A DNA stretch of 54,404 nucleotides from a virus. Its lineage: Duplodnaviria; Caudoviricetes. Below, one piece after another: positions 28,001 to 52,147 of this stretch (the first letter of the stretch is position 1; each line of letters opens with the position of its first letter). Position numbers and translations under genes: made by a program. The notes beneath the pieces are model-generated. The model was given only the letters and a program-made list of their open reading frames with translations. It had not been told where the DNA came from and made no database searches. The DNA lies in the IMG/VR virus record IMGVR_UViG_3300043446_000267, positions 1 through 54,404 of that record; one strand, 5' to 3'.

Positions 28001-28521
28001 GGAACAGTATCCGCTAGAAAGTCATAGGCATTTGTACTCTTAGTAATAGTATAGACTGTGTTGAAATAAACGTTTGAGTTAGTAACTACGACTGTTTCAG
28101 GACCATTTGGCAACCAGTAGTATTGACCATAGTTTATTAACTTATCTAAGTCAGTGAAACTGTCCCATGAATAAAATTGTGACGAGAACAAACGATTGTT
28201 ATCTTCTACCAGTGCACCTTCAGTACTTAACGCATTTAGAATACCTCTGTATGTAATCAAATCCACTACTTCTGCTGTGTTTTTCTTTCTAAACACAACC
28301 GCAGGATCTAACTGATAATCGTTACGATATTTTTCTTTTTCTATGATGTATTTGTCATCAGCTTTTACGCCGTAACCAAACTTACTCCCGATGTACCCCT
28401 GAATCTTCTCAGTATTCGGTTGCTTAACAATTTGGTCAAGTGTTGCACTTAAAAATTGTTCGTTGGTTTTAGTTTTGAAAATTTCTGGAAGAAAATCAAT
28501 CGTTCTGATACGTGTTACCAT
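13075..28521 (-). CDS. Giant (5148 aa) baseplate wedge/receptor-binding structural protein (T4 gp7 position)
   Basis: Uninterrupted 15.4-kb ORF directly downstream of gp6; FG-GAP-like repeats (FVGAPG, VVGAPY, VVSAPT, IVGTPD), BNR/Asp-box repeats (S-x-D/N-G-x-x-W), ESKPYHVVIKDF motif, FCCH-like and CBM-like modules. Confidence 0.75.
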   Translation of the reverse strand: MVTRIRTIDFLPEIFKTKTNEQFLSATLDQIVKQPNTEKIQGYIGSKFGYGVKADDKYIIEKEKYRNDYQLDPAVVFRKKNTAEVVDLITYRGILNALSTEGALVEDNNRLFSSQFYSWDSFTDLDKLINYGQYYWLPNGPETVVVTNSNVYFNTVYTITKSTNAYDFLADTVPLTTSNPTISLMRGGEYTFVVNQDNPFFIQGVPGVTGMDPVRTNINTREILGVTNNGASTGTITFKVPLSTEQDNFNYPGNTEIDLATRLSFDKIHGRPLRELQDIDGINSLEGRTLIFYGAKPDERGYLGDLFASTPFGVDNPNTAQTDVFEDGLYTNVADFIYRISYQGTGNDVVIQLEEYEAIPNNQKLTVLYGSEFATRNFVKPSYGQMFMIPYLSAKLDTLYYQDGSNSGVFGKIKILEQTSDNAIYVETDIIGKKSYTSPNDIKFTNGLKVTFTGFIFPETYKQGTYYVEGVGESINLIPVDELVVPEPFTESFSSPFEVKAFDAEAFSTALSVPSTKDFITINRNSRDRNAWSRSNRWFHHDVLTTTIQHTPNSPIAQAALNGTTARANRPIIEFYPSIRLFNHGTEYKAPVDYIDFTTTDALNELPGKNQFMLDGQLVDISDGSRIIFAADNNPEVRSKIYIISNSIVKDDPATAKLDSTITLSLASDSDIGVDQQIIIVNGNNAGKSYYYTGVQWNESQQKRLINQPPKFDVFDQSGVSFGDQSSYPGSDFEGCTLFEYATGTGADDPVLGIPLAYSSVDNIGDIAFTTTLNTDTFSYLTNGISTTGTVGHGYVYKYDTRTDYARQIGWQTAIGPSFQYQIFNFDLTKEPGFTFVCDVVPKDQTTTPWPTVVVYLDNARLKSTDYTVTSSTDSSTFQVLRNATSTSLQIMIYSDQVSKTGYYQIPSNFDSNPFNGQITTIHMGDIRGHFKSICNNCLSIEGDPFGANNYRDLGNLVPYGTRIIQNSGSMGMPAMYLRLPEFNLFNALSYNSTEYIKFKALLINTVETGDYNSTQQVDEILDDVMSKIAAIRTTSNPFYWSDMLPSKSPSSNRTYPINNSINEVNYPLSRTYTFAVANYYSVLVYLTRTVDGEKTKIQLVRDEDYIVSESEPQVTIKYKLIPGDVINVKEYDQTFGNFVPSTPTKLGLYPKTEPEVETYPSPAYLTPTTFIVGHDSSYTKIYGEFVNGKLTDLRDKVLFEYELRVFNNLKATAKIPLKREDIFPGFFRKTEFSYDEVQKIYSTQFLNWVGKNRIDYKSQFFDTYNQFTWNYNQSRNKIDNSEIKQGGWRGLYIWLYDTHSPDTTPWEMLGYTEMPTWWINRYGAAPYTSDNTFLWDDLEKGYDYNDGNPYINSKFARPGLSEILPVNSLGKLLSPIETTIGFTEATSYNRSWKVGDVGPAEFSYLKSSSWPFDLMRIFALTKPSVFFTQGTDLDYYRYNEEFNQFLVYDRFRSAPTDMVVYGGGLGKTRAEIENYANHSINVWVVDYLQQFGYSGSQAIVDTIQNLDVNLTYRIGGFTDKDMMNFYVEKGSPNSKNSSLLIPDESYTIRLHENQPFDRIYYSSVIVQKTESGFTITGNSQDRAYFQTFAPKVNGNTESVTVNNATIKLYKDSTDNVQLVPYGTEFQSYQGICQFLVDYGRYLESCGMIFDTVENSVQVTWRQMVNELMYWMTTGWENNSIISINPAAKHLAVNRPFSIVQSLTLQGQNYVLDQDLNPIQTKDLAIYRNGTEFRITAVNEKQTIAYFTANLSNIEHIAIFDNTTIFNDTIFNVTTGLRQQRFYVRGMKTSDWNGSFDTQGFILNQENINEWKENQKYPKGMIVHYKNNYWVANSMIQPDIDFSKQDWVKTEYELISKGMLPNASTRAFESTLYYDGARSNLGSDADMLGFSLVGYRPRDYLAQANLSDISQFNVYKDIIKSKGTKNSINVLNNAELPQGKVNYSVYDNWAIKSSEYGGISNQNFIELTINKNTLSSNPHIIGITTGEETEGVHQYVALNTLTNYNKSLLTPSVFSKLSDFSKETEIFRSAGYVNFDDITYSAFNFAGLNSTSVNDLYKNDYVWIANHNNDWDVFSPTSITNNNNPVHLTSVNNNLNGTATFIFDNHHNLTEDSLIAIVHFNDTIDGFYDIVSVTSLTSVVVTLSLDSSVTTISGFALAIRLQSHRLLTPSDISYLPLLDNEFVRNKAWVDYGVDGNWSVYEKTNNYAPSIVDTYGTTSTFGNSVAYSPILGYFFADKGEKKVHRMAYEEMLDIYSTQEILQPLFGRTTPATYGACVVVQGDMLVISQPDNFGTNSFIWIYKLVNTQKVKRAVYQQYIWVSGGGIGQHMTMSGDTNYLYASADSYSGATVFQKNVLPFIDTTGILLKETAPLGSTTLVVTGNKVVDLPSGEEITFSTIDSSITSMIVTAKYSSGTNTTTFYLYDPLTVEIPAGAQILTSSINYSFVGVFTAGNDPTDGFSLSMSTTYNGDMVFVGAPGYDFSQLQRDTGMGYVFERLSETFEVQADSPAMTNTIVVVPWLTSSGTVVSINGVRYDTVLAGTRPAPVWVYPDVFIAGATVILIGPDVFAGDRITVDSVNMVEKQVISAYDNSSQVSNNAMFSQGLDCNISGADLVVGAPYFIDENGVEGHVYRFINEGKKYGVITGILPVTLAEPADILINHFRVSVPAGNAKAVADAINLVALDNIVAEATDDTDDGKLIVRLRNPDLGPINNKLTLTVFDGNVLYYLGISEYTKTQVISSPHVEKGSQFGYSVKFNEYNSFVVSAPTGTRFLGTQFDFTDDANNHNDTAFDNNFTQFVDFTDRAGAVYMYDYLPGYNESLFNSGNYVYAQALDDTVSDLGQKPMYGKSLFYRHNKVIVGTPDFKPAEVGGRVVVFNNALNLQNWNISRTSNDVIDISKIQKAQVFDNVSNTMVAPLDYIDPIQGKLLGVVRHNIDYVSYTDPAGYNTNGYGNIAWGKSQVGHLWFDPTDTRFVNYHQSSISYNSKYWGKVFPGSTVTVYTWVESDVTPAFYAGTGTPYDIEHYTTSSEIDSTGSIVTKYYYWVRGTNKVFTNSGKTLSDAIIETYIKDPQSTGIPYIAFYSASSFGLYNANDMITENTNLYVGYSNTGVDNPSHAAYQMIRDGSPDDFLPGFPTALNNYSDPTGLYLKLIDSFAGLDTMGSMVPNPNIPLLMRIGVSNKPNQSMFVDRLSALKNYLVYVNSILVQYPVYEFKEASWLHTSGATYDTTQYWNYVNWWATGYSDSTKTLLDVDRYYELQTIEAFEGMLVGVNTNSSGRRETYVYNNGAWVRVGLENGTIAFSSSLWNYSTSGFGLGTSFFDTDAYDNYPSMETRYIIRAINEQLFVGELFKYRNEGLILLFEFIQSENIAAHNYLTWLNKTSFIDVGNTVRNLETYPKFQKDDDEMLYGYLQESKPYHVVIKDFFMRYSGLETYSSGVTDFDLPALYNTSLYKFVSPQLVFNPPNATEFAVGDPIWSTQEYVNWYNNIGLQMKGTPNAEVALVAKFITDIDTEIYVDNAYGLPVTGVIRIDDELIGYSHVDRVKGILQGLSRGAEGTDIVEHYPSVKIYMDLPGVVVVDTGRGYIDPPSVKAVVDTTRFPAPTREAVLTPVMSGDKLIGVTVNDPGEGYVTIPEIHISPSLSVGFNDYNIDFNQNTIVINTNKFVTGDLVRFVHLAHSSEVEEQVTGLVDNTFYYVKVLAEIDENTRLISLHSSYAHTIQGDHPIELYTKQELVVTRNVPLADVMTYALEIAAKASPVTKNTRARQIKSILRYDRTSYGSNIEKWEPGMFWPSPFNSLGNDASSTTRMYDDQASVTSASWQGAMLDIVNVNNDQGTVVATVDYSHSNGLEPGQIKGLRMYFYKTFPAYQYDDTANNGAKFKIYRPRFDPTGITNAYYIVMENSGTIYSDNSEIRVRGGLLGGKDGLNDFVLKVRFVTIQNGISIYDIEGIAVGEFKMYYANPVASDQIKVYNDPSFRVPVLYEGFEYGAGDYIFLPEPFSTSAGYKYVVQATVSYQGKVYRCIRSNSDLIFDYAKWAEVDPSDRSLNAIDRVLGYYNPTSDMPGNILQVVQGITYPYNVYKGNVFANDEMLPLDMVLQDMPFYPRDINITSIVYDGINYIATADAADHSVVLVSPDGKTWNTYKVSNKVLGLTGVITTNTPSYIVTANISSAPVLISFDIQNWETLGAYTPYDVIIFGESGFDSTGVQAPRYPMSAIATLYGDYYAVGDKGYVIKSSNGLIWNDVYMIGSKLPNVLKSITVVECFNYAGLVAVGYGMKVISGADSAAPVIEQVGRVLLSVDGSEWNLVDPIFTNEQLHTVTSSEAVIIAAGSNATIYRSNNGVSWTESNVNGVTSSTIRGSIYANGVFVLVGDTGAVLTSDDGIEFYTQTSGTNKNLKSITFDGEYFIAAGDYGVIIRSNDDGVTWQDVSFITSKLPNYTIKGDDFVSGYGPEELVAGIVNDTLSMKVITKPGAFWDTNTLIDTQNDIVYGYTGFGMESKRVTPDFNNKFSFDGILDNPVQIAVFVEDKITGLSTRIYQDITPTSQNPYTYSVNWVSKTITMNMAVATTESVFVEVYDFGNGREVIRTNSISTPLGVNADTGTSQFTLSNYKYVQNFSLFSTSDVNFDPVVFCNGVKLSSNDFEVAFIPEGTRVTFDNLYDPAVDYITFVILSSTLVPEYNNIKFGYSLPETEVFVYADSNTFTLVNYIGGSTVDDAIVELNGNRLSSTQYSFDTNLSTITIIDTLAEGDIVSVTTYHDTKRQQLVTTELDTFETSSFAFVDNTSSIVVSGERYPTITITTKDNHSFVDGDLIRIDGLKGMLELNNTTHYVKVKTAKSFELYEQVTLQGQDLVFFPPTSGSGLGKFIPSGYAWKDEDTVQITSDFTYTTGSRTWVTVNGERVNPENLRYNEDNKLSIMAPISVGDKVMITSMVSDATPGQLIYHISVDKKGNGEIHRVQDNVWLTQPLYVYEDSIHVNNARKLVNNVVENVSAVTTDSGVVAQLSYRIEDLSGLIVQNINTLTTLGKDQYVVKNVNSRPTVIFNSGVSEGDNLVITLQIGHIVEINGEQIHFRTVDYVSNTVSGLTRGIKGTGIRKIHNTESYVHGFNDVTKLDAIFYNNIMSSTDITPMGDPMQISSTPAAKFLRTGSY

Positions 28522-40833: not shown

Positions 40834-40858
40834 TATTTAGCACTAAATAAAAGTGCTA
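40834..40858. promoter_or_regulatory. Back-to-back CTAAATA late-type boxes overlapping a TAGCACT/AGTGCTA inverted repeat at the divergence point
   Basis: tatttag-ca-ctaaata palindrome (40834-40849); 7-bp stem 40838-40844/40852-40858. Confidence 0.55.
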
Positions 40859-40873
40859 TTTTTACCGTTTCTC

Positions 40874-40902
40874 TTGCATTTTTGAAACGAAAGTATTACA
40901 AT
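40874..40902 (+). promoter_or_regulatory. Sigma70-type promoter for gp55
   Basis: TTGCAT-17 bp-TACAAT upstream of GGAG SD and ATG 40928. Confidence 0.65.
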
Positions 40903-40927
40903 ATTCTCATTATAACAACGGAGAAAT

Positions 40928-41821
40928 ATGAGCCTCATACCTATAAAAAAACCAGTAAACTATCTTAACAACAAAGATATTTTAAAAGAGATTCACACAA
41001 GCAAAAACGCATATTGTTCATTTAAGGATCCTGAAACGGATCACCGTTATGACTTTATCGTTGATATGCCAACAGAATCTATCAAAAATAGTCTAGAATT
41101 TGCATACAAACCTGAAGTGATACAGCAAGCAAAAGAAACTAGAGCCACAAGATTATCACAAGAAACAGGCACAAAAGTTGACCCAGAAACAATCAAAGAC
41201 ACGGATTTAGTTTTTAGAGTTATGACTTGGGAACACATTCCAGTCGCCCCGAAAGCACCCAGAAAAGTAGATAAGAAGAAAACTGCAAAAGATATTTTTG
41301 AGTTTGAGGACGATTCCGAAGAGTTTGCAGATTTGGAAGATAATACTACCAAAGGCGAAATTGATGACATGGTGCATGTCAAAGTTAATTTCCCACCATT
41401 CCAACATTTTAAGTTAACAAAAACAGGTACATTCAAGTGTGTGGGTAAGAGTCATTGGATCGGTGATTTAAAAACTGGCGAATTCAGCAAGGATCACGGA
41501 AACATCACTAACAAATTAGCACGTATGTACATTATGATGTGTGAGAAATATGCTATGAAATTTAACTGGCGTGGATACACATACAATGATGAGATGCGTA
41601 ACAGTGCCATTCTACAGTTAACTTATGTTGGTTTGCGTTTCAATGAAGCCAAAAGTGCTAACCCATTCGCTTACTACACCGCAGCTATTACTAATAGTTT
41701 CTGCCGTGTATTGAACTCAGAAAAGCGTAACCAAAACATTCGTGATGATATCTTAGAAATGAATGGTCTCAACCCATCATGGACTCGACAGGGCACATCG
41801 AGCACTACATACGAAGAATGA
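40928..41821 (+). CDS. gp55: Late-transcription sigma factor, T4 gp55-like
   Basis: NYLNNKDIL.EI, KFNWRGYTYNDEM, FNEAKSANPFAYYT.AI.NSF.R.LN.EKR.Q.IRD; immediately upstream of gp47/gp46 as in T4-like phages. Confidence 0.88.
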   Translation: MSLIPIKKPVNYLNNKDILKEIHTSKNAYCSFKDPETDHRYDFIVDMPTESIKNSLEFAYKPEVIQQAKETRATRLSQETGTKVDPETIKDTDLVFRVMTWEHIPVAPKAPRKVDKKKTAKDIFEFEDDSEEFADLEDNTTKGEIDDMVHVKVNFPPFQHFKLTKTGTFKCVGKSHWIGDLKTGEFSKDHGNITNKLARMYIMMCEKYAMKFNWRGYTYNDEMRNSAILQLTYVGLRFNEAKSANPFAYYTAAITNSFCRVLNSEKRNQNIRDDILEMNGLNPSWTRQGTSSTTYEE

Positions 41822-41834
41822 TTCACCAAATCAT

Positions 41835-41863
41835 TTGTATTTTAGCGTAAAGTTTTATATACT
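41835..41863 (+). promoter_or_regulatory. Sigma70-type promoter for gp47 (likely leaderless transcript)
   Basis: TTGTAT-17 bp-TATACT ending 6 nt before ATG 41870; no SD. Confidence 0.65.
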
Positions 41864-41869
41864 AACTAC

Positions 41870-42883
41870 ATGAGTAACCTTTTTAAGAAGGCTGCTGTCT
41901 TTACCGATATTCATTTCGGTATGAAGTCAAACAGCCTACAACACAACCAAGACTGTGCCAATTTTGTAGATTGGTTTATACAAGAAGCAAAGAAAGAAAA
42001 CTGTGAAACCTGTTTCTTTTTAGGTGATTGGAATCATCATCGTGCAACTATAAATATTCATACACTGCAATTTGGTTTGCAGGCATTGGAGAAACTTAGT
42101 GCCGCGTTTGATGTTGTATATTTTATTCCCGGTAATCACGACCTGTATTATCGTGACCGCCGTGACATACATTCTGTTGAATGGGCCAAGCATCTACCGA
42201 ACGTTAAAATTGTTAACGACTTCTTCAAACAAGGTGATGTAGTAATTGCCCCTTGGTTGGTGCAAGAAGATTACAAAAAAATCAAAACAATGTCCAGCAA
42301 ATATCTGTTTGGGCATTTTGAACTACCACACTTTCATATGAATGCAATGGTTGAGATGCCGGATCACGGTGAACTCAATTCAGAGCACGTTACTGGATTC
42401 GATAAAGTATTCAGTGGTCATTTTCACAAACGCCAAGCAAAGAAAAACATTTGGTACATTGGCAATGCGTTCCCCCACAACTTTGCCGATGCAGGCGATG
42501 ATGCTCGTGGTATGATGATACTAGAGTGGGGCGAAGAACCAGTCTTTAGAAGTTGGGACGCTCAACCGAAATTTAGAATTCATAAACTTAGTGATGTGTT
42601 AGAGAATCCATCCGGTTTGCTTGTGAAAGATAGTCACGTTCGTGTACACTTAGATATTGATATTAGTTATGAGGAAGCAACTTTCTTAAAAGAAACTTGG
42701 ATTCCAGAACATAAATTACGTGAAATGTCGTTGATACCCATGAAAGTAGAACAAGTTCAAACTCAAGGTCCTGATGGTTTGAAGTTTGAGTCAGTAGACC
42801 AAATCGTCATCGACCAAATTAACTCAATTGAATCTAATTCATTTGACAAAAAAATTCTATTAGAAATCTATAACAATCTATGA
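41870..42883 (+). CDS. gp47: Recombination endonuclease subunit, gp47/Mre11/SbcD-like
   Basis: Metallophosphoesterase motifs DIHFG, GDW.H, GNHD, GHF, SGHFH. Confidence 0.93.
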   Translation: MSNLFKKAAVFTDIHFGMKSNSLQHNQDCANFVDWFIQEAKKENCETCFFLGDWNHHRATINIHTLQFGLQALEKLSAAFDVVYFIPGNHDLYYRDRRDIHSVEWAKHLPNVKIVNDFFKQGDVVIAPWLVQEDYKKIKTMSSKYLFGHFELPHFHMNAMVEMPDHGELNSEHVTGFDKVFSGHFHKRQAKKNIWYIGNAFPHNFADAGDDARGMMILEWGEEPVFRSWDAQPKFRIHKLSDVLENPSGLLVKDSHVRVHLDIDISYEEATFLKETWIPEHKLREMSLIPMKVEQVQTQGPDGLKFESVDQIVIDQINSIESNSFDKKILLEIYNNL

Positions 42884-44952
42884 TCCAATTAAAGAACATT
42901 ACCCTTCGCAACTTTCTATCTATTGGTGCAGTAACACAAGCAGTATCATTTGACAAACAAGACTTAACACTAATTCTAGGTGAAAACTTAGATTTGGGTG
43001 GTGATGGTGCTCGTAACGGTACTGGCAAAACTACATTGATTCAAGGGTTATGTTATGCTTTGTTCGGTAATCCTATCAATGACATTCGTAAAGATAACTT
43101 AGTTAACCGCACGAATGCAAAAGGGATGCTAGTTACATTAGAGTTTAGTGTAAATGGTAAAGAATACAAGATTGAGCGTGGTCGTAAGCCTAACATTTTA
43201 AAGTTTTATGTAGATAATGAACTACAGAAACAAGAAGATACTGCACAAGGTGAGAACAAGGAAACACAAGCAGAAATTGAAAAAGTTATTCACATGTCAC
43301 GTGACATGTTTACTCATATTGTGGGTTTGAATACATACACTCAGCCTTTCCTTGCGTTGAAAAACAATGAACAACGTGAGATTATCGAACAACTATTGGG
43401 TATTACTTTGCTTTCAGAAAAAGCAGAAGGTATCAAAGACTTGATGAAGTCAGTAAAAGATGATATCTCACAAGAAGAATTCAAAGTCAAAGCCATCGAA
43501 GAAGCTAATAAACGGGTCAAAGAACAGATTGATAGCTTAAAGCGCCGTAGCGGACTATGGCAAAGTAAACATGACAGTGATTTAGCGTATCTTGCAGGTT
43601 TGTATGAAGACTTGGCTAAGATTGATATCGGTGGTGAATTAATTGCACACAAAGAACTTTCAATTTGGAATGAGCATAAGAAACAAAAAGATACCTATGA
43701 TGCATTAGTTGCTCGTCAGATTGCTTGGCAACAAAAGCAAGACTCTGATATCAAAAAATTAGAGAATGATGCAATTAAGTTGAGTAAGATTGATATTGTG
43801 GCTGAGATTCAAGCACATCACCAACTTGCAGAACACATCACCAGAAAAGCAAACTTAGAACAACGTGATAAGGAATTGGATCGTCTTACTAAAGACATTG
43901 ACAAAGAAGATAAACTAATCAAAAAACTAGAACTTGAAGTTGAGAAGTTGAAAGCTCACACTTGTTATGCTTGCGGTCAAGATTTCCATGATGATGCACA
44001 TAAGGAAGTGTTAGACAGCAAGCAAGATATGTTACTTGAAGCACGGGCTCATGCTACATCACTATTGAATCAGTGGAATGAGTTACGCAGTGTTGAAATC
44101 TTTGTTCCAGAAAAGCCAAAAACACATTACAAAACAGAAGCAGAAGCAATTCGACATGGTGGCGACTTAGAAAACATTCGCACAAAGATTTTAGAAAAAG
44201 AAAAAGAAGTCGATCCATACTGTGAACAACTTAAAGAAATGAAGGAAATTTCATTGGGTCCTCAACCTAAAACGCACTACGATACCGAAGCACAAGCAGT
44301 TGAACATCGTAGTAAAGTTGCTAATTTAGAAACACAGATGGAAGCAAAGCTCAATGAAACTAACCCTTACACTGAACAAATCAGTGAAATGGAAAGTCAG
44401 GCTTTGCAAGAGATTAACTTTGACAGGATTAACGTATTGACAAAGAAGATGGAACATCAAAAGTTCTTACTTGATTTGTTAACTAGTAAAGACAGTTTTG
44501 TTCGTAAGAAGATTATCGACCAAAACTTGAGTTATCTGAACGCACGACTAACTCATTACCTTGATAAAATAGGATTGCCGCACAATGTCATCTTTAAGAA
44601 CGACTTGAGTGTAGAGATTACAGAATTGGGTCGTGAACTCGACTTTGATAATCTGTCACGCGGTGAACGAAACAGATTGATTCTTGGTTTGAGTTTTGCT
44701 TTCCGTGATGTTTGGGAGAACTTGTATGTTCCTATCAATACGTTATTCATTGATGAATTGATTGATTCAGGATTAGACACAATCGGTGTTGAAAACTCTA
44801 TTGCCATCCTGAAAGACATGTCACGTACTAGAAACAAGAGCATTTGGCTTGTTTCACACAGAGAAGAACTAGCTGGTAGAGTTCCTAGCGTACTAAAAGT
44901 AGTCAAAGAGAATGGTTTTACTAACTATGCGACTTCAACGGATATAGAATAA
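42880..44952 (+). CDS. gp46: Recombination ATPase subunit, gp46/Rad50/SbcC-like
   Basis: NFLSIG, Walker A NGTGKTT, coiled coils with CYAC zinc hook, signature LSRGE, Walker B LFIDE, VSH switch. Confidence 0.93.
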   Translation: MIQLKNITLRNFLSIGAVTQAVSFDKQDLTLILGENLDLGGDGARNGTGKTTLIQGLCYALFGNPINDIRKDNLVNRTNAKGMLVTLEFSVNGKEYKIERGRKPNILKFYVDNELQKQEDTAQGENKETQAEIEKVIHMSRDMFTHIVGLNTYTQPFLALKNNEQREIIEQLLGITLLSEKAEGIKDLMKSVKDDISQEEFKVKAIEEANKRVKEQIDSLKRRSGLWQSKHDSDLAYLAGLYEDLAKIDIGGELIAHKELSIWNEHKKQKDTYDALVARQIAWQQKQDSDIKKLENDAIKLSKIDIVAEIQAHHQLAEHITRKANLEQRDKELDRLTKDIDKEDKLIKKLELEVEKLKAHTCYACGQDFHDDAHKEVLDSKQDMLLEARAHATSLLNQWNELRSVEIFVPEKPKTHYKTEAEAIRHGGDLENIRTKILEKEKEVDPYCEQLKEMKEISLGPQPKTHYDTEAQAVEHRSKVANLETQMEAKLNETNPYTEQISEMESQALQEINFDRINVLTKKMEHQKFLLDLLTSKDSFVRKKIIDQNLSYLNARLTHYLDKIGLPHNVIFKNDLSVEITELGRELDFDNLSRGERNRLILGLSFAFRDVWENLYVPINTLFIDELIDSGLDTIGVENSIAILKDMSRTRNKSIWLVSHREELAGRVPSVLKVVKENGFTNYATSTDIE

Positions 44953-44973
44953 TATTCAGGTACAGTTTTTAAG

Positions 44974-44981
44974 CATAAGTA
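44974..44981 (+). promoter_or_regulatory. Putative late promoter variant CATAAGTA
   Basis: 5 nt upstream of resolvase ATG, same spacing as the TAAATA boxes at 50028 and 51805. Confidence 0.5.
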
Positions 44982-44986
44982 TTATC

Positions 44987-45523
44987 ATGCCAAGTCCACA
45001 AAAAGCAAAAGGTTCAGGCTACGAACGTGACGTAGCTAAGTTTCTATCAGAATTATACGGAGAATCGTTCATTCGTGCTCCTGGTTCTGGTGCTTATGTG
45101 GGTGGCAAGAATCAAGCCAGAACTCAATTCTTGCACGAAGGACAGATTCGCTCTTTCAAGGGTGACATTGTTCCAGGAGAGAGTTTCAGCAAAATGAACG
45201 CAGAATGTAAATTCTACAAAGATTTCCCGTTTCACTTACTGCTTACAGGAAAATGCGCTCAACTTGATTCGTGGCTCGACCAACTCTTAGACGTTGAAGA
45301 TGACGGCGACTTAAACATTCTTTTTATGAAGTTTAATCGTATTGGTCAGTTTATCGCTGTACAGCCTAAACTAACATGGGTGATGGATAACTATACATTC
45401 TATGCTAGTAAAGATTACGGCGATTGGCTCATCACAGAGAAGGATGGCTTTTTCAAAAACAACAAAGAATTAGTAAAACAATATTCTAGCAAATTAGACA
45501 CCACGTCAATAAACCAAACTTAA
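44987..45523 (+). CDS. PD-(D/E)xK nuclease, Holliday junction resolvase (Hjc-like)
   Basis: KAKGSGYERDVA (KG..ER), SGA, GDIV, ECK catalytic motifs. Confidence 0.8.
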   Translation: MPSPQKAKGSGYERDVAKFLSELYGESFIRAPGSGAYVGGKNQARTQFLHEGQIRSFKGDIVPGESFSKMNAECKFYKDFPFHLLLTGKCAQLDSWLDQLLDVEDDGDLNILFMKFNRIGQFIAVQPKLTWVMDNYTFYASKDYGDWLITEKDGFFKNNKELVKQYSSKLDTTSINQT

Positions 45524-45543
45524 TACAGAACCCTAACACATAT

Positions 45544-45890
45544 TGTAGTCAGAGTTTGTCTGACCTCCTTGAGATTGTACAGATTGTGCTGTGCCGTCAG
45601 ATTCTGGAGTATCACACGCTGCGAAGCGTGGGAAAACCGAGTGGGCAATCTTTCTAGGGAACCCACAATGAGTCTATGCCGTACTCTATCTTGAAGGCAT
45701 AGAACATGCGTTGCCGAGCGAAGCATATCCGAGCGAGATATGATAAGTTCAACTACAGACCATAAACTTTAAAGGGCAACCGGTAGCGTTTAGTAGCATC
45801 AGGAGCTGATTAAACGGGTACAGATAGCAAAGGATGACGGGCATGGCAAATGACCTTAACCATTGGTAGTGCTGAATAGCACTACCATGG
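45544..45890 (+). ncRNA. Candidate large structured non-coding RNA of unknown family
   Basis: Non-coding, visibly GC-richer interval with ten or more mutually compatible helices found by eye, including a long-range helix 45587-45605/45831-45848 with G-U pairs, a GCGA (GNRA) tetraloop stem and a 10-bp terminal hairpin. Confidence 0.55.
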
Positions 45891-45965
45891 CTTCAAAGCG
45901 GCAATGATATTCTTTCTCCTAACATAACAATAAAATATAGTCCGATACAAAAAAGTTTAACACAG

Positions 45966-46030
45966 TAACCGAACTTAACTTCTGAGCGAAGCGAAGAATT
46001 AAGTGAAGGTTAGATGAACGAAGTTCATCT
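45966..46030 (+). other. Tandem GA-mismatch/GAA-triloop hairpins (ssDNA-type structure or terminator region)
   Basis: TAACC-GA-ACTTAA-C-TTCT-GA-GC(GAA)GC-GA-AGAA-TTAAGT-GAA-GGTTA, then AGATGAAC(GAA)GTTCATCT. Confidence 0.55.
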
Positions 46031-46102
46031 TTAATACTAGAATGTGTTTTAGAATAATGGATAGTAACGGATGTATGACCAAACAATAAAAAGAAAATAC
46101 CA

Positions 46103-46339
46103 TTAAAAGAATGGTAGATTCGATTTCTTTGTGGTCTCTATATTTTCATCGGCTAATTCATTTATGAGGTTTCTTTCTGATGCCGACATATTCATAACAT
46201 CAACGTATGTGGCTCCGCCCCTCATATGCCAACTGAGTCTTAGTGCGGATCGTTTGATATCATTGGCTTCTTTTTCCAATTGTTCCAATAGCTTAGGGAT
46301 CCCGCTATTGTCTAATTGTAGAAGCCTTATTCGAAAAAA
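46103..46339 (-). CDS. gp51-like baseplate/tail assembly protein, probably expressed as a -1 frameshift extension of the gp26-like gene
   Basis: Frame is open from the slippery site at 46339 (TGA immediately before it) to stop 46103; LSWHMRGGATY.D.MNMS..ER..I resembles gp51; no ATG/SD start (track used TTG 46288). Confidence 0.7.
   Translation of the reverse strand, partial: FFRIRLLQLDNSGIPKLLEQLEKEANDIKRSALRLSWHMRGGATYVDVMNMSASERNLINELADENIETTKKSNLPFF
46265..46339 (-). promoter_or_regulatory. Programmed -1 ribosomal frameshift signal
   Basis: Slippery heptamer T TTT TTC (46339-46333), 6-nt spacer GAATAA, stem-loop GGCTTCT/AGAAGCC + CAATT/AATTG + CAATAGC/GCTATTG (46326-46265). Confidence 0.7.
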
Positions 46340-47154
46340 TCAGATACATTCAATGTGAATGGCTGTTCATATTCATGTTGGCAGTGAACGCATGTAATTT
46401 TCAATGGTTTGATTTCACTAGTTTCACGCAAAGAAATAACATGGTTACGTAGTGTATCAAACACTTTCTTGTCACAATTCTTCAAGTAATCTAAAATGTG
46501 ATTGGAATCATCTACTGTAATTTCTGGTGTTTTAACTTCTCTGATTCCTTTAGCTACTACCCTAAAGCTCAATTCATTCACTTTTCCTAATACTCTGCTA
46601 GTAGCTTCATTTTGTTCATCTACATCTTCAATAGAACGAGCATTAATCATTTCTCTTTGGACTTCAAATTGAGCCATGTTACCTTCGTTAATCTCACTCA
46701 ATGATAGTGGGCGGAATGTAAAAGATAAGTCTCCGACAAACAACTCTTTATCGTAATCTCCGGGTTTGATGGATGCTAACAAACCCATTAAGTTCAACCC
46801 AAACTTGTTTGTTTCTTTACAGCTAACACAGTCTGATTCGATATCCATTTCACTACCAACACTTGCGGCTCTAATAGCAATCAACACTGCGTCTAAATCA
46901 ATACTGTTTAGTTTGTCGGGATTAATGATGTTTGGAACACAGCTACGAATGATTTCAACTACGGCTGATCCGTTGAACAATGCATCAGGTGTTTTTGCAG
47001 TTACTTCATCAATAGCTGTCATAGGATAGATGGGTAATTCACCATTATCTGGAATTCTTACGGTCATTTCATCATAGAACTGTCCTCCGCTTGGTAGCTT
47101 TAAGTACATTGCAGGTCTACGGAAATATTGCTTTAGTGGGTTTATATCGTTCAT
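46327..47154 (-). CDS. gp26: Baseplate hub assembly protein, T4 gp26-like
   Basis: NPLKQYFRRP..YLKLPSGG, PMTAIDE...KTPDAL.NG, D.DA.LIAIRAAS.G, two CxxC pairs (CVSC, CVHC), C-terminal DFF. Confidence 0.8.
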   Translation of the reverse strand: MNDINPLKQYFRRPAMYLKLPSGGQFYDEMTVRIPDNGELPIYPMTAIDEVTAKTPDALFNGSAVVEIIRSCVPNIINPDKLNSIDLDAVLIAIRAASVGSEMDIESDCVSCKETNKFGLNLMGLLASIKPGDYDKELFVGDLSFTFRPLSLSEINEGNMAQFEVQREMINARSIEDVDEQNEATSRVLGKVNELSFRVVAKGIREVKTPEITVDDSNHILDYLKNCDKKVFDTLRNHVISLRETSEIKPLKITCVHCQHEYEQPFTLNVSDFFE

Positions 47155-47182
47155 TTGTTCTCCAAAACGTATTTTTTTAGGT

Positions 47183-47203
47183 CATAAATACTACATATTT
47201 ATT
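47183..47203. promoter_or_regulatory. Overlapping divergent late promoters (CATAAATA on +, AATAAATA on -)
   Basis: In the 58-bp gap between gp26 and the tape measure gene. Confidence 0.6.
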
Positions 47204-50040: not shown

Positions 50041-51804
50041 ATGTCTTATAAGAAACGTTTTTCCGCCCCAAATACTACGGGTGCTTTAAGCCCAATCTCA
50101 GGTGCTAACAGTAACCAAGGAGCTTGGAATAGTTCTCCTGCCACTGCTTCTTGGAGTAATGACAATTTTGGATACAAGAACTATCAAAGCCGCTTACCTG
50201 AGATTTATACAGGACACCCAAATCGTATTGAACGTTATAATCAATATGAAATGATGGATGTTGATGCGGAAATCAACGCATGTTTAGATATCATTGCAGA
50301 GTTCTCAACACAGAAAAACGAACAAAATAATACTCCGTTTGAAATTACTTTTCACGAAGATCCAACTCCGCATGAAGTTGAACTTATTAAAAAGCAACTT
50401 CAACAGTGGTGTAAACTAAACGAATTTGACACAAGAGTTTTTAAAATTTTTAGAAACGCACTAAAGTACGGCGACCAAGTGTTTGTTAGAGACCCAGAAA
50501 ACTTCAAGTTGTATTGGGTTGACATGACTAAGGTTACAAAAGTAATTGTTAACGAAAGTGAAGGTAAGAAGCCAGAACAGTATGTTATCAAAGACATTAA
50601 TCCAAACTTACAGAATTTAAGTGTAGCAGAAAAAGTTAGTACTGACTTCAATACTCCATCAGGTCCCGGTGGATTTACTGCACCATCCAATTATACAATG
50701 CCAAACACCCCCGGAACATCAGGTTCTAGATTTCAATTGGGCATCAACGAAGCAGCTATCGATGCTAAACATGTTGTTCATTTGAGTCTAACAGAGGGTT
50801 TAGATAGATACTGGCCGTTCGGTCAATCTGTTTTAGAGAACATCTTTAAAGTCTATAAACAAAAAGAACTATTAGAAGATGCGATTCTTATCTATCGTAT
50901 AAGTCGTGCTCCTGAGCGTAGAGTTTTCAAGATTGACGTTGGTAATATGCCAAGTCACATGGCTATGGCTTTCGTTGACCGTATTAAGAATGAGATTCAT
51001 CAACGTAGAATCCCATCAGTTCAAGGTGGGCAATCATCTTTTGATGCAACATATAATCCATTGAGCATCAACGAAGATTACTTTTTCCCTGTGACTGCTG
51101 ATGGTCGCGGTTCAGATGTAACTACACTTGCAGGTGGTAGTAATTTAGGTGAGATTGACGACTTGCGTTATTTCAACAACAGACTAGCAAGAGGCTTACG
51201 TGTGCCAGCTAGTTACTTGCCGCAAGGTCCTGAAGATAACCCGATTGCAATGAATGACGGTAGAGTTGGAACAGCAATGATTCAAGAGTTCCGTTTTAAT
51301 CAATACTGTGAACGTCTACAAAAGTACATTTGCCAACGTTTAAATGACGAATTTAAGTTGTTTATGCGTTACAGGGGCTTCAATATCGATTCAGGTTTGT
51401 TCGATATTAAGTTCAATGCACCTCAAAACTTTGCAAGCTATCGCCAATCAGAGTTAGACACCGCAAGAGTTACGGTGTTCCAGACTATGGAAGCGTTCCC
51501 ATACATGAGTAAACGTTTTGCTATGCAACGATTCTTAGGCTTAACTGAAGAAGAAATCGAAGAAAACAGCAAAATGTGGCTCGAAGAAAGAGAAAAACCA
51601 GAAGAATCTGAAACATCTGGTAGCGATTTGCGTAGTATTGGTATTAGTCCAGGCGACATTGATACTGATTTGGAAGACGCTGAAAACATGGGAAATGAAG
51701 AAGGTATGGATATGAACATGCCACCTGAAGGAGCCCCTGCTGTAGGCGGACCTGAAATGATGCCAGGTGGACCAGCCGGCGGTGGTATGCCACCAGCAAT
51801 GTAA
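50041..51804 (+). CDS. gp20: Portal protein, T4 gp20-like
   Basis: YEMMD.D.EI..CLDII, LLEDAILIYRISRAPERRVFKIDVGNMP, EDYFFP...GRGSDVTTLAGG.NLGEIDDLRYF..RL.RGLRVP.S.L. Confidence 0.95.
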   Translation: MSYKKRFSAPNTTGALSPISGANSNQGAWNSSPATASWSNDNFGYKNYQSRLPEIYTGHPNRIERYNQYEMMDVDAEINACLDIIAEFSTQKNEQNNTPFEITFHEDPTPHEVELIKKQLQQWCKLNEFDTRVFKIFRNALKYGDQVFVRDPENFKLYWVDMTKVTKVIVNESEGKKPEQYVIKDINPNLQNLSVAEKVSTDFNTPSGPGGFTAPSNYTMPNTPGTSGSRFQLGINEAAIDAKHVVHLSLTEGLDRYWPFGQSVLENIFKVYKQKELLEDAILIYRISRAPERRVFKIDVGNMPSHMAMAFVDRIKNEIHQRRIPSVQGGQSSFDATYNPLSINEDYFFPVTADGRGSDVTTLAGGSNLGEIDDLRYFNNRLARGLRVPASYLPQGPEDNPIAMNDGRVGTAMIQEFRFNQYCERLQKYICQRLNDEFKLFMRYRGFNIDSGLFDIKFNAPQNFASYRQSELDTARVTVFQTMEAFPYMSKRFAMQRFLGLTEEEIEENSKMWLEEREKPEESETSGSDLRSIGISPGDIDTDLEDAENMGNEEGMDMNMPPEGAPAVGGPEMMPGGPAGGGMPPAM

Positions 51805-51812
51805 GATAAATA
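51805..51812 (+). promoter_or_regulatory. Putative late promoter GATAAATA
   Basis: Immediately after the portal stop, 5 nt before ATG 51818. Confidence 0.65.
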
Positions 51813-51817
51813 ATATT

Positions 51818-52039
51818 ATGAAATTATTCGAAATGTTTGACCCAGCAGTTCCCGGTTATCAAGATACCGAGAATGATAACTCACGTGTAAAGTGGAAAGA
51901 AACACGTAAGACCAAGTTAACATTGCGTCAAATCCGTAAATTACGTAAAATGAATGACGTTCGTAACTATGAAAAAGCACAGACATTGAAGAAAATTCGT
52001 AAGCAATATGAAGTGGTTGCCGAGCAACCTCCTATGTAA
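51818..52039 (+). CDS. Small basic head-module protein
   Basis: MKLFEMFD...TRKTKLTLRQIRKLRKM; start moved from 51767 to 51818 to avoid portal overlap and fit the promoter. Confidence 0.7.
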   Translation: MKLFEMFDPAVPGYQDTENDNSRVKWKETRKTKLTLRQIRKLRKMNDVRNYEKAQTLKKIRKQYEVVAEQPPM

Positions 52040-52063
52040 AACACATATTCTATACGAAAACGT

Positions 52064-52095
52064 AAAAAAATAGCACTTATTGTGCTATTTTTTTT
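52064..52095. terminator. Bidirectional rho-independent terminator
   Basis: AAAAAAATAGCAC-TTATT-GTGCTATTTTTTTT. Confidence 0.75.
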
Positions 52096-52103
52096 GATAC
52101 CCA

Positions 52104-52110
52104 CTAAATA
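52104..52110 (+). promoter_or_regulatory. Putative late promoter CTAAATA
   Basis: Just after the terminator, upstream of AGGAG SD and ATG 52148. Confidence 0.6.
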
Positions 52111-52147
52111 AAATTACACAAGCCATTTCTAATCAGGAGAACAAATA

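What the first reader, a model, noticed from the sequence alone, without database searches (positions are those of the whole stretch)
44987..45890. Large multibranched ncRNA candidate directly downstream of a PD-(D/E)xK resolvase: possible nuclease-RNA module
The only long non-coding gap in 54 kb. Compatible helices found by eye: 45548-53/45559-64; long-range 45587-98/45836-48 (two G-U, one bulge) extended by 45601-05/45831-35; CACGCT-GCGA-AGCGTG (GNRA loop); ACCG 45636-39/CGGT 45781-84 closing a junction with GTGGG/CCCAC, TCTATGCC/GGCATAGA and GTTGCC/GGCAAC (enclosing CATATC/GATATG); CGTTTAGT/ATTAAACG; terminal TGGTAGTGCT/AGCACTACCA. Possible pseudoknots: TGTAGT 45544-49/ACTACA 45752-57 and CTCCT 45565-69/AGGAG 45801-05. 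G-U pairs work only on the + strand. It begins about 20 nt after the resolvase stop with no separate promoter visible, so it is likely co-transcribed late. I do not recognise it as tRNA, tmRNA, RNase P or an intron. Inference: an undescribed phage structured RNA, possibly an RNP partner of the nuclease, a packaging/assembly RNA or a ribozyme.
Basis: partly seen in the sequence, partly recalled or inferred. Interest (0 to 1): 0.85.

Follow-up and report, generated by a model that had tools for sequence, protein, structure and literature searches.

The report
Conserved structured RNA of jumbo phages
A stretch of about 370 bases at the end of a phage DNA-repair operon encodes a tightly folded, strongly conserved RNA that matches no catalogued RNA family and whose job is still unknown.

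Summary
The non-coding gap is real and holds a genuine structured RNA on the + strand, at about window 45540-45905. Homologues lie in all 200 related virus loci fetched and occur once per genome in 5 of 5 large relatives. On 97 sequences below 95% identity, a curated fold of 81 pairs in 14 helices is 95.1% paired, against 32-43% when partners are slid. Fifty-nine of 81 pairs show compensatory changes, and G-U outnumbers A-C 367 to 49.

Its long-range helix and both of its pseudoknots do not. Two other pseudoknots covary strongly: 45686-91 with 45822-27, and 45759-61 with 45817-19.

No Rfam 15 family matches at E up to 10, in the window or in 16 homologues. It is not tRNA or tmRNA, and it has no conserved ORF.

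The nuclease link rests on synteny alone (169 of 170 loci). Four cultured phages carry the nuclease without the RNA, and one locus keeps the RNA without the nuclease.

Best reading: a new family of large phage non-coding RNA, made as the tail of the late-sigma/SbcD/SbcC/resolvase operon and acting as a folded particle. Its function is unknown and there are no expression data.

The parts
40928..44952 (+). Upstream genes of the same-strand operon: late sigma factor (gp55-like, 40928-41821), SbcD/Mre11-like (41870-42883) and SbcC/Rad50-like (42880-44952)
   Evidence: PHROGs phrog_12791 E 8e-70, phrog_100 E 3e-66, phrog_77 E 3e-110. Pfam Metallophos, AAA_23, SMC_N.
44987..45523 (+). PD-(D/E)xK endonuclease gene (178 aa), last protein gene of the operon
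   Evidence: Pfam PDDEXK_15, E 1.1e-22, profile positions 2-156 of 164. PHROG 244 'RusA-like Holliday junction resolvase'. Directly upstream of the RNA in 169 of 170 loci with enough flank.
45540..45905 (+). The structured RNA: conserved core from the A-rich leader to the GGCAAU tail
   Evidence: nhmmer hit in 200 of 200 IMG/VR loci. Alignments A1 and A2. Fold statistics. Strand by G-U 367 against A-C 49.
45548..45564 (+). H1 hairpin (45548-53/45559-64)
   Evidence: 5 of 6 pairs have compensatory changes (helix 1).
45565..45609 (+). H2, CUCC/GGAG (45565-68/45606-09), enclosing hairpin H3 (45573-82/45589-98)
   Evidence: H2 is 100% paired, with CG changed to UA in 3 of 97 sequences. H3 has 5 of 6 counted pairs compensatory (helices 2 and 3).
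45613..45631 (+). H4 hairpin with a GNRA-type tetraloop (GCGA at 45621-24). Some relatives carry insertions of up to about 60 nt.
   Evidence: 5 of 5 counted pairs are compensatory (helices 4 and 5). Loops GCAA, GUAA, GUGA and GCGA are visible in A1 and A2.
45635..45785 (+). Four-way junction: H5 (45635-39/45781-85) closes H6 (45641-45/45662-66 plus 45649-51/45658-60), H7 (45668-70/45705-07 plus 45673-80/45696-45703) and H8 (45710-15/45775-80). H8 holds the variable hairpin 45716-50 and the invariant ACUACAG at 45752-58.
   Evidence: helices 6-9 and 11: 96.7-100% paired, 24 of 30 pairs compensatory. ACTAC is invariant in 97 sequences.
45686..45691 (+). PK1, 5' side: the loop of H7 (CUAUCU), pairing with 45822-45827
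   Evidence: 98.6% paired, 5 of 6 pairs compensatory, for example UA 56/CG 39 and AU 53/GC 42 (helix 10).
45822..45827 (+). PK1, 3' side (AGAUAG)
   Evidence: As above. Covariation cannot tell whether the pairing is within one molecule or between two.
45759..45761 (+). PK2, 5' side (ACC here, UCCC in most relatives), in the internal loop of H8, pairing with 45817-45819
   Evidence: 97.0% paired, 4 of 4 pairs compensatory. The first pair reads UA 63, AU 12, CG 12, GC 5 (helix 12).
45817..45819 (+). PK2, 3' side (GGU here, GGGA in most relatives)
   Evidence: As above.
45787..45816 (+). H9 hairpin (45787-97/45805-16)
   Evidence: 9 of 11 pairs compensatory, 91.5% paired (helix 13).
45832..45863 (+). 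H11, tentative: an imperfect hairpin with the conserved apical AUGGCAA
   Evidence: It recurs in single-sequence folds of the distinct variants of this stretch. The alignment here is too gappy to count pairs. Not tested by covariation.
45864..45887 (+). H10 hairpin UGGUAGUGC-loop-GCACUACCA, nearly invariant in sequence
   Evidence: 100% paired, 7 of 9 pairs never vary, 1 compensatory (helix 14). Loci L085-L204 were found through this motif, so its invariance there is partly by selection. It is also conserved in the 60 protein-found sequences of A1.
46012..46030 (+). Conserved hairpin AGAUGAAC-GAA-GUUCAUCU followed by UUUAAUA: a candidate terminator or 3' end of the transcript
   Evidence: blastn blocks of 24-28 nt at 96-100% identity in loci whose RNA is 70-80% identical, shorter or weaker in some loci. 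The motif is present in 63 of 135 distinct downstream stretches, 48-93 nt after the RNA model's end. The terminator scan did not call it.
46103..47154 (-). Convergent neighbours: a small ORF (61 aa, 46103-46288) and the baseplate hub gene (275 aa, 46327-47154)
   Evidence: Pfam T4_baseplate E 2e-16. PHROG 150 baseplate hub. The same arrangement holds in 13 of 13 loci listed for the large ORF and 11 of 13 for the small one.

Best explanation
Window 45540-45905 (+) is the gene of a previously uncatalogued structured non-coding RNA of about 370 nt. It occurs once per genome in an uncultured clade of T4-like jumbo phages related to PA5oct and Atu_ph07.

Shown: the RNA folds into eleven or so helices. 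These comprise a 5' domain (H1-H4, with a GNRA tetraloop), a four-way junction (H5-H8), H9 and an almost invariant 3' hairpin (H10). Two pseudoknots tie the strand after H9 to the loop of H7 and to the internal loop of H8.

Inferred: it is transcribed as the 3' tail of the late-sigma/SbcD/SbcC/PD-(D/E)xK operon and ends near the conserved hairpin at 46012-46030. It then works as a compact folded particle and not by linear base-pairing. Its invariant exposed elements would be docking or active sites for a protein or another macromolecule, in trans. Those elements are H10, the ACUACAG and UUUACAG strands in the H8 loop, and the GGCAA loop.

I put about 0.97 on 'real, selected RNA structure on the + strand', about 0.85 on 'a family not in the catalogues I could search', and about 0.5 on 'trans-acting folded RNA or RNP' as opposed to a purely cis role.
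For: - Homologues in 80 of 80 loci found through the nuclease protein and in 120 of 120 found through the H10 motif.
- 126 distinct sequences among 178 full-length copies.
- No shared ORF: the longest open frames are 36-111 aa and lie in varying frames and strands.
- RNAalifold gives 74 pairs, 49 of them compensatory.
- The curated fold on 97 sequences is 95.1% paired, against 32-43% when slid. 59 of 81 pairs are compensatory. The covariation score is 0.432, against at most 0.086 when slid, and 0 of 500 shuffles reach it.
- G-U 367 against A-C 49.
- GC is raised by about 8-15 points over the flanks.
- One copy in 5 of 5 large relatives, 3 of them 100% complete by CheckV.
- No Rfam match and no tRNA or tmRNA.
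- The same strand as the operon, 16-25 nt after its last stop codon, and no sigma-70-like site on the + strand between 44882 and 46031.
- A conserved hairpin lies downstream.
- Invariant unpaired blocks argue for a specific three-dimensional function.
Against: - There are no expression data at all: no RNA run was listed and no cultured phage carries the RNA.
- The ends of the transcript are inferred.
- All relatives share the same gene order, so context says little about function.
- The near-perfect synteny with the nuclease (169 of 170 loci) could still reflect a functional link.
- The position between convergent operons fits a cis role as well.
- The alignments are MAFFT alignments. The shuffle control ignores phylogeny; the slid control does not. 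R-scape was not available.
- Pieces of the RNA may already be listed among the 8,495 short candidate RNAs (29-151 nt) predicted from IMG/VR (PMC10690425, section 2.1 read).
Confidence: 0.6

Rival explanations
1. Cis-acting 3' element. The fold protects the operon mRNA from 3' exonucleases, or ends or insulates transcription where the + strand operon meets the minus-strand baseplate operon. No separate RNA product matters.
For: The RNA starts 16-25 nt after the last stop codon with no promoter found. It sits between convergent operons in every locus examined. A conserved hairpin lies 48-93 nt further on in 63 of 135 distinct sequences. The A-rich leader ATAAAAAT is not a general promoter motif: it occurs in 1 of 345, 3 of 336 and 5 of 526 upstream windows.
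Against: A stabiliser or terminator needs a stable hairpin. It does not need two covarying pseudoknots, a four-way junction and invariant unpaired strands kept across 97 diverged sequences. The other convergent or terminator sites seen in the window are simple hairpins.
Confidence: 0.2
2. Catalytic or self-assembling RNA. Either it is a ribozyme, for instance one that cuts itself out of the operon transcript. Or PK1 is an intermolecular contact that builds an RNA-only multimer, as in ROOL and GOLLD.
For: Size, pseudoknots, a GNRA loop and invariant single strands are typical of large ribozyme-like RNAs (my knowledge). It must be released from a longer transcript if it has no promoter of its own. 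In ROOL and GOLLD, loop-junction contacts first found by covariation proved to be bridges between chains (PMC12286853, passages read). PK1 is such a loop-to-strand contact.
Against: There is no match to any ribozyme family in Rfam. No cleavage site or catalytic motif could be identified. Nothing tested here tells intra- from intermolecular pairing.
Confidence: 0.15
3. RNP partner or guide of the adjacent PD-(D/E)xK nuclease (the reader's module).
For: The nuclease gene is directly upstream, on the same strand, in 169 of 170 loci, with protein identity 54-88%.
Against: Homologous nucleases (40-47% identity) in PA5oct, SCTP-2 and Phosso are followed by coding genes. The core model R1 finds no RNA in those genomes or in Atu_ph07: best E 0.77, against the positive control at 1e-29. 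L144 keeps the RNA with radical-SAM-like and GIY-YIG-like ORFs (motifs read by eye in the translations, not scanned) in the nuclease's place. The variable parts of the RNA are paired stems, not a free guide. The whole clade shares its gene order, so synteny is weak evidence.
Confidence: 0.07
4. Replication-origin RNA. A structured primer or R-loop-forming transcript, in the manner of ColE1 RNA II, ending in the AT-rich stretch downstream.
For: The detrended cumulative GC-skew minimum lies 5-8 kb from the RNA in 3 of 3 complete relatives. 45900-46099 has 30.5% GC. The neighbours are recombination genes.
Against: The skew minimum coincides with the divergent gene junction (window about 40.85 kb), not with the RNA. 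It may simply reflect gene orientation. The three genomes share synteny, so this is in effect one observation. AT-rich intergenic DNA is ordinary in a genome of about 37% GC.
Confidence: 0.05
5. A very divergent member of a known family (tmRNA, RNase P RNA, group I intron, GOLLD or ROOL), or a mini-ORF or coding region.
For: The size (about 370 nt) and the pseudoknots recall tmRNA and RNase P RNA (my knowledge). In the window an SD-like AAGGA is followed by an 8-codon ORF that ends in H10.
Against: No Rfam hit at E up to 10, in the window or in 16 homologues. ARAGORN finds nothing in the window. It does find canonical tmRNAs elsewhere in 2 of 3 complete relatives. The mini-ORF is in frame in only 36 of 97 sequences, 41 use another frame or stop, and 20 lack the start. 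No exons flank the RNA.
Confidence: 0.03

Closest known systems
GOLLD and ROOL RNAs (large ornate phage or prophage RNAs of unknown function)
   Same: They are encoded by phages, are several hundred nucleotides long and have many helices. Covarying loop-to-strand contacts occur, and no function is known (PMC12286853, abstract and passages).
   Different: No sequence or structure match to their Rfam models. This RNA is smaller (about 370 nt). It is not near tRNA genes: in relative G002 the tRNAs lie at 0.3-4.6 kb and 351-359 kb, and the RNA at 98.5 kb. Its hosts are T4-like jumbo phages. Multimer formation is untested.
tmRNA
   Same: Similar length, with several pseudoknots. The related phages do invest in translation RNAs: 33-56 tRNAs.
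   Different: There is no tRNA-like domain and no conserved tag frame. Canonical tmRNAs sit elsewhere in 2 of 3 complete relatives.
Bacterial RNase P RNA and group I introns (large pseudoknotted catalytic RNAs)
   Same: Size class, a long-range helix closing a multi-helix junction, and a GNRA loop.
   Different: No hit to their covariance models at E up to 10. There are no flanking exons: the upstream gene is complete, and no + strand gene follows.
phi29 pRNA (packaging RNA)
   Same: A phage-encoded structured RNA whose covarying loop-loop contact is intermolecular (my knowledge). This RNA lies a few kb from the portal gene at 50041-51804.
   Different: There is no Rfam match. T4-type packaging motors are not known to use an RNA (my knowledge). 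This RNA is twice the size.
Guide or scaffold RNAs of RNA-guided nucleases (omega RNA of IscB/TnpB, tracrRNA)
   Same: A structured RNA abutting a nuclease gene.
   Different: The nuclease is a small PD-(D/E)xK resolvase-type protein that exists without the RNA in cultured phages. There is no variable unpaired guide segment.
Candidate structured RNAs predicted from IMG/VR (Fremin, Bhatt and Kyrpides 2023)
   Same: The same data source and the same kind of evidence (covariation in intergenic regions of uncultured phages).
   Different: Those candidates are 29-151 nt long (section 2.1). At most fragments of this RNA could be among them. I could not check, because the supplements are closed.

Membership tests
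Any Rfam 15 family | Match to the family covariance model at or above its gathering score | tested here: not met
   0 matches in the whole window at gathering. In 45400-46400 at E up to 10 the only match is RefA5 at 45976-46030 on the minus strand, 17 bits against a cut-off of 91. In 16 homologue loci, 4 matches at E 2-7, no family twice, none on the RNA's strand.
tmRNA | tRNA-like domain (acceptor stem, T arm, 3' CCA) | tested here: not met
   ARAGORN finds 0 genes in the window. The same program finds canonical tmRNAs elsewhere in relatives G002 and G003.
tmRNA | Conserved tag reading frame | tested here: not met
   The mini-ORF ends at the H10 UAG in 36 of 97 sequences. 41 use another frame or stop, and 20 have no start.
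Group I or group II intron | Core fold recognised by the family models, and interruption of a gene (flanking exons) | tested here: not met
   No model match. The upstream PDDEXK gene is full length, covering profile positions 2-156 of 164. No conserved + strand ORF lies downstream.
RNase P RNA | Match to the bacterial, archaeal or minimal RNase P models | tested here: not met
   No match at E up to 10. The conserved P4 nucleotides were not examined beyond the models.
GOLLD / ROOL | Match to the family model | tested here: not met
GOLLD / ROOL | RNA-only homo-oligomer | not testable with these tools
   PK1 could be intra- or intermolecular. This needs native gels or cryo-EM.
RNA-guided nuclease module (guide or scaffold RNA plus nuclease) | The RNA and the nuclease co-occur wherever the nuclease family occurs | tested here: not met
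   Three cultured jumbo phages carry the nuclease (40-47% identity) with no RNA downstream or elsewhere in the genome. The core model also finds nothing in Atu_ph07, where I did not look for the nuclease. L144 has the RNA without the nuclease upstream.
RNA-guided nuclease module (guide or scaffold RNA plus nuclease) | A variable, unpaired targeting segment | tested here: not met
   The variable stretches are stems with compensatory changes (H1, H4, the H8 insert, H9). The unpaired stretches are the conserved ones.
Large structured phage ncRNA of unknown function (the kind I file it under) | Phage-encoded, non-coding, over 300 nt, with a multi-helix fold supported by covariation | tested here: met

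The most novel reading that the evidence does not exclude
This is a new class of functional RNA specific to jumbo phages, in one of two forms. It could be a ribozyme. Or it could be an RNA that assembles into a higher-order particle, with PK1 (the H7 loop pairing with the strand after H9) as a bridge between chains and the invariant H10 hairpin as a docking site. In either form it would be made early with the late sigma factor and recombination proteins and used to reprogramme or organise the infected cell.
Probability: 0.2. Interest if true: 0.9.

Novelty: new member of a known kind. Interest (0 to 1): 0.72.

Why it matters
Large RNAs with intricate conserved folds are rare in bacteria and phages. 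Most that have been understood turned out to be catalysts or central machines (my knowledge), and the phage-borne ones (GOLLD, ROOL) are still unexplained (PMC12286853).

This RNA has a clean covariation-supported model with two pseudoknots. It occurs once per genome, has more than 120 distinct natural variants, and sits in a defined operon context. That makes it ready for in vitro transcription, probing, cryo-EM and activity screens.

It also shows that the gene map of an abundant clade of uncultured T4-like jumbo phages of 260-525 kb contains at least one RNA gene that current annotation misses. If it acts with the late-transcription or recombination machinery, it would add an RNA player to T4-type phage development.

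Tried and rejected
- **Public RNA runs** for window 44000-47200: no RNA holder was listed. This says nothing about expression, and read laying was therefore not used.
- **blastn of 45400-46400 against cultured phages:** no match.
- **H10 motif in one genome per prokaryote species:** 9 stretches matched. nhmmer showed only the hairpin itself in one of them (E 0.023) and nothing in the other eight, so these are chance inverted repeats and not host copies.
- **Mini-ORF or tmRNA-like tag** (AAGGA, then AUG, then 8 codons ending in H10): rejected. It is in frame in only 36 of 97 sequences.
- **Anti-Shine-Dalgarno mimic.** The invariant CCUCCUU resembles the 16S 3' end (recalled). However, CUCC is paired to GGAG inside the RNA, with CG changed to UA in 3 sequences. 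A free anti-SD is therefore unlikely.
- **Own promoter.** The A-rich leader ATAAAAAT before H1 in many relatives occurs twice in the window, against 7.1 expected. It is not enriched before genes in three complete relatives, whereas ATAAATA is enriched 10-13 fold. TATAAATA (the T4 late promoter, recalled) occurs once in the window.
- **Sigma-70-type scan of the operon's upstream region:** nothing convincing.
- **Alternative pairing of the three GGCAA copies with the H8 5' strand:** rejected by eye on A2, because only the H8 partner covaries.
- **Stretch 45890-46060:** it folds no better than shuffles, z -1.17.
- **H8 inner hairpin and H11:** these could not be counted by column because the MAFFT alignment is gappy there.
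- **Literature.** Four full-text searches found no description of this RNA. Fremin et al. 2023: I read the abstract, the outline and section 2.1. Kretsch et al. 2025: I read the abstract listing and 12 passages. Supplements of both were not seen.
Full report
**What is there.**
- The window is a 54.4-kb fragment of an uncultured virus record, 16% complete by CheckV.
- Genes at 40928-45523 lie on the + strand. They encode a late sigma factor (gp55-like), SbcD/Mre11-like and SbcC/Rad50-like proteins, and a 178-aa PD-(D/E)xK endonuclease (Pfam PDDEXK_15, E 1e-22; PHROG 'RusA-like Holliday junction resolvase').
- No conserved + strand gene follows. The next genes are a small ORF (46103-46288) and a baseplate hub gene (46327-47154), both on the minus strand.
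- The stretch 45524-46326 is the longest in the window without an ORF of 90 aa or more.
- Within it, 45500-45899 has 45.5-47% GC, against 30.5-39.5% on either side.
- The portal and prohead protease genes are T4-like. The closest cultured phages are PA5oct and Atu_ph07, with portal identity of 48-49%.

**Is it more than chance?** The single sequence says little. The minimum free energy is -114 kcal/mol on the + strand (z -2.54) and the minus strand gives z -2.50. The comparative evidence is decisive.
- A protein search with the nuclease gave 244 confirmed stretches in IMG/VR, of which 80 loci were kept.
- All 80 carry DNA homologous to window 45556-45913 just after the gene, at 67-80% identity.
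- The longest open frames there are 36-111 aa, in changing frames and strands.
All 120 contain the whole element by nhmmer.
- Of 178 full-length copies, 126 are distinct and 96 are below 95% identity to each other.

**The fold.**
- RNAalifold on 60 sequences predicted 74 pairs, 49 of them with compensatory changes.
- A mutual-information scan found two further long-range pairings.
- I counted a curated structure of 81 pairs in 14 helices on 97 sequences.
  - 95.1% of cells pair, against 32-43% when the 3' partners are slid by 1-3 columns.
  - 59 of 81 pairs show changes on both sides.
  - The covariation score is 0.432, against at most 0.086 when slid. No shuffle out of 500 reaches any observed measure.
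- G-U cells number 367 and A-C cells 49, so the + strand is the RNA strand.
- In window coordinates the helices are:
  - H1: 45548-53/45559-64
  - H2: CUCC/GGAG, 45565-68/45606-09
  - H3: 45573-82/45589-98
  - H4: 45613-20/45625-31, with a GNRA-type loop
  - H5: 45635-39/45781-85, closing a four-way junction with H6, H7 and H8
  - H6: 45641-45/45662-66 and 45649-51/45658-60
  - H7: 45668-80/45696-45707
  - H8: 45710-15/45775-80, which contains a variable hairpin and the invariant ACUACAG
  - H9: 45787-97/45805-16
  - H11: a tentative hairpin, 45832-63
  - H10: 45864-72/45879-87, nearly invariant
- PK1 pairs the H7 loop (45686-91) with 45822-27. PK2 pairs 45759-61 with 45817-19. Both are 97-99% paired with abundant compensatory changes.

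Nine local helices are right. The long-range helix 45587-98/45836-48 with its extension, and the pseudoknots TGTAGT/ACTACA and CTCCT/AGGAG, are not supported.
- Together they are 71.2% paired, equal to the shuffled mean of 71.0%, and show no excess covariation.
- Where the 5' strand of the proposed long helix changes, the local hairpin H3 is kept and the long pairing is lost.

**What it is not.**
- No Rfam 15 family matches at gathering score in the window.
- None matches at E up to 10 in 45400-46400, and none recurs among 16 homologue loci.
- ARAGORN finds no tRNA or tmRNA in the window. It does find 33-56 tRNAs in three complete relatives, and canonical tmRNAs elsewhere in two of them.
- A short ORF that looks attractive in the window is in frame in only 36 of 97 sequences.
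- The motif scan of one genome per prokaryote species gave 9 hairpin-only chance hits and no homologue.
- Cultured phages have no blastn match.
- A covariance model of the junction core (R1: 150 positions, 30 pairs) finds nothing in PA5oct, SCTP-2, Phosso or Atu_ph07. The best E is 0.77, while a positive control scores 1e-29.
- The element occurs once in each of 5 large relatives of 260-525 kb.

**The nuclease link.**
- The nuclease gene lies directly upstream in 169 of 170 loci with enough flank. The whole clade shares this gene order, however.
- Homologous nucleases in three cultured jumbo phages have no such RNA.
- In L144 the RNA stays in place. Between SbcC and the RNA there are radical-SAM-like and GIY-YIG-like ORFs instead of the nuclease. 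Those motifs were read by eye in the translations.
- The variable parts of the RNA are paired stems and the unpaired parts are conserved, which is the opposite of a guide RNA.
- I therefore give the 'module' a low probability.

**How it most likely works.**
- Shown: a selected, compact, pseudoknotted fold on the + strand.
- Inferred: it is transcribed with the operon, because no promoter-like site lies between 44882 and 46031 on the + strand. The A-rich leader seen in many relatives is not a general promoter motif.
- Inferred: the transcript ends near the conserved hairpin 46012-46030, which is present in 63 of 135 distinct downstream stretches.
- The invariant unpaired strands and the invariant H10 hairpin suggest specific recognition or chemistry. 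I therefore favour a trans-acting folded RNA or RNP over a mere 3' stabiliser, without direct evidence.
- Precedent from ROOL and GOLLD shows that a covarying loop-to-strand contact such as PK1 may be a bridge between molecules (PMC12286853).
- A replication-origin role is a weak alternative. The GC-skew minimum lies 5-8 kb away in 3 of 3 complete relatives, but it coincides with the divergent gene junction.

**Novelty and verdict.**
- The RNA is not in Rfam 15. Four full-text searches found no description of it.
- A 2023 survey of IMG/VR intergenic regions reported only candidates of 29-151 nt (PMC10690425, section 2.1). Fragments of this RNA might be among them, but its supplements were closed.
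- I file it as a new family within the known kind 'large structured phage RNAs of unknown function'.

Noticed in passing
window 46012-46030 (+): A hairpin, AGAUGAAC-GAA-GUUCAUCU, is conserved at 96-100% identity, loop included, in many loci whose flanks are only 70-80% identical. It is present in 63 of 135 distinct downstream stretches. It may be a terminator for one or both convergent operons, or a protein-binding site.
   Followed up: partly
window 40928-41821 (+): The first gene of the operon that ends in the RNA is a gp55-like late sigma factor (PHROG 12791, E 8e-70; no Pfam hit). The cluster late sigma, SbcD, SbcC recalls the T4 gene 55/47/46 neighbourhood (recalled).
   Followed up: partly
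G001, G002, G003 (complete relatives); window upstream of 47213, 50041, 32401, 31910, 12250: The 7-mer ATAAATA (often GATAAATAC) is the most enriched word 8-70 nt before start codons. It occurs in 36 of 345, 35 of 336 and 78 of 526 upstream windows, against 3.3-5.8 expected. It stands before several structural genes of the window. This is probably the late promoter of the clade. TTGACA-like words are enriched too.
   Followed up: partly
G002 146402-146878; G003 288480-288896; tRNA arrays at the contig ends of G002: The complete relatives carry 33-56 tRNA genes. Two of the three carry a canonical tmRNA with an ARAGORN-predicted tag ending in AA.
   Followed up: no
G002 about 104-107 kb, G001 about 47.7 kb, G003 about 339.4 kb; window about 40.85 kb: The detrended cumulative GC-skew minimum lies 5-8 kb from the RNA in all three complete relatives. 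In the window this corresponds, by shared gene order (my inference, not aligned), to the divergent junction 40844-40927. That junction holds a terminator-like hairpin at 40838-40858. It could be an origin region or merely a gene-orientation effect.
   Followed up: partly
L144 5786-7161: In one relative the nuclease gene is missing between SbcC and the RNA. In its place are a 213-aa ORF with a CxxxCxxC radical-SAM-like motif, an 85-aa ORF and a 147-aa ORF with a GIY-YIG-like motif. The motifs were read by eye in the translations and not scanned.
   Followed up: no
window 51805-52147: This is the second-longest stretch without a long ORF (343 nt), after the portal gene. It contains an A7-hairpin-T8 element at about 52064-52095 that looks like a two-way terminator. 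A published survey mentions candidate cis-regulatory RNAs near gp20 genes (PMC10690425, outline only).
   Followed up: no
window 13075-28521 (-): A single ORF of 5148 aa lies within the structural gene block. It was not examined.
   Followed up: no
window 45775-79, 45845-49, 45900-04: The pentamer GGCAA occurs three times in conserved positions of the RNA: the H8 3' strand, the H11 apical loop and the 3' tail. Only the first covaries with a partner (by eye). A repeated recognition motif is possible.
   Followed up: partly
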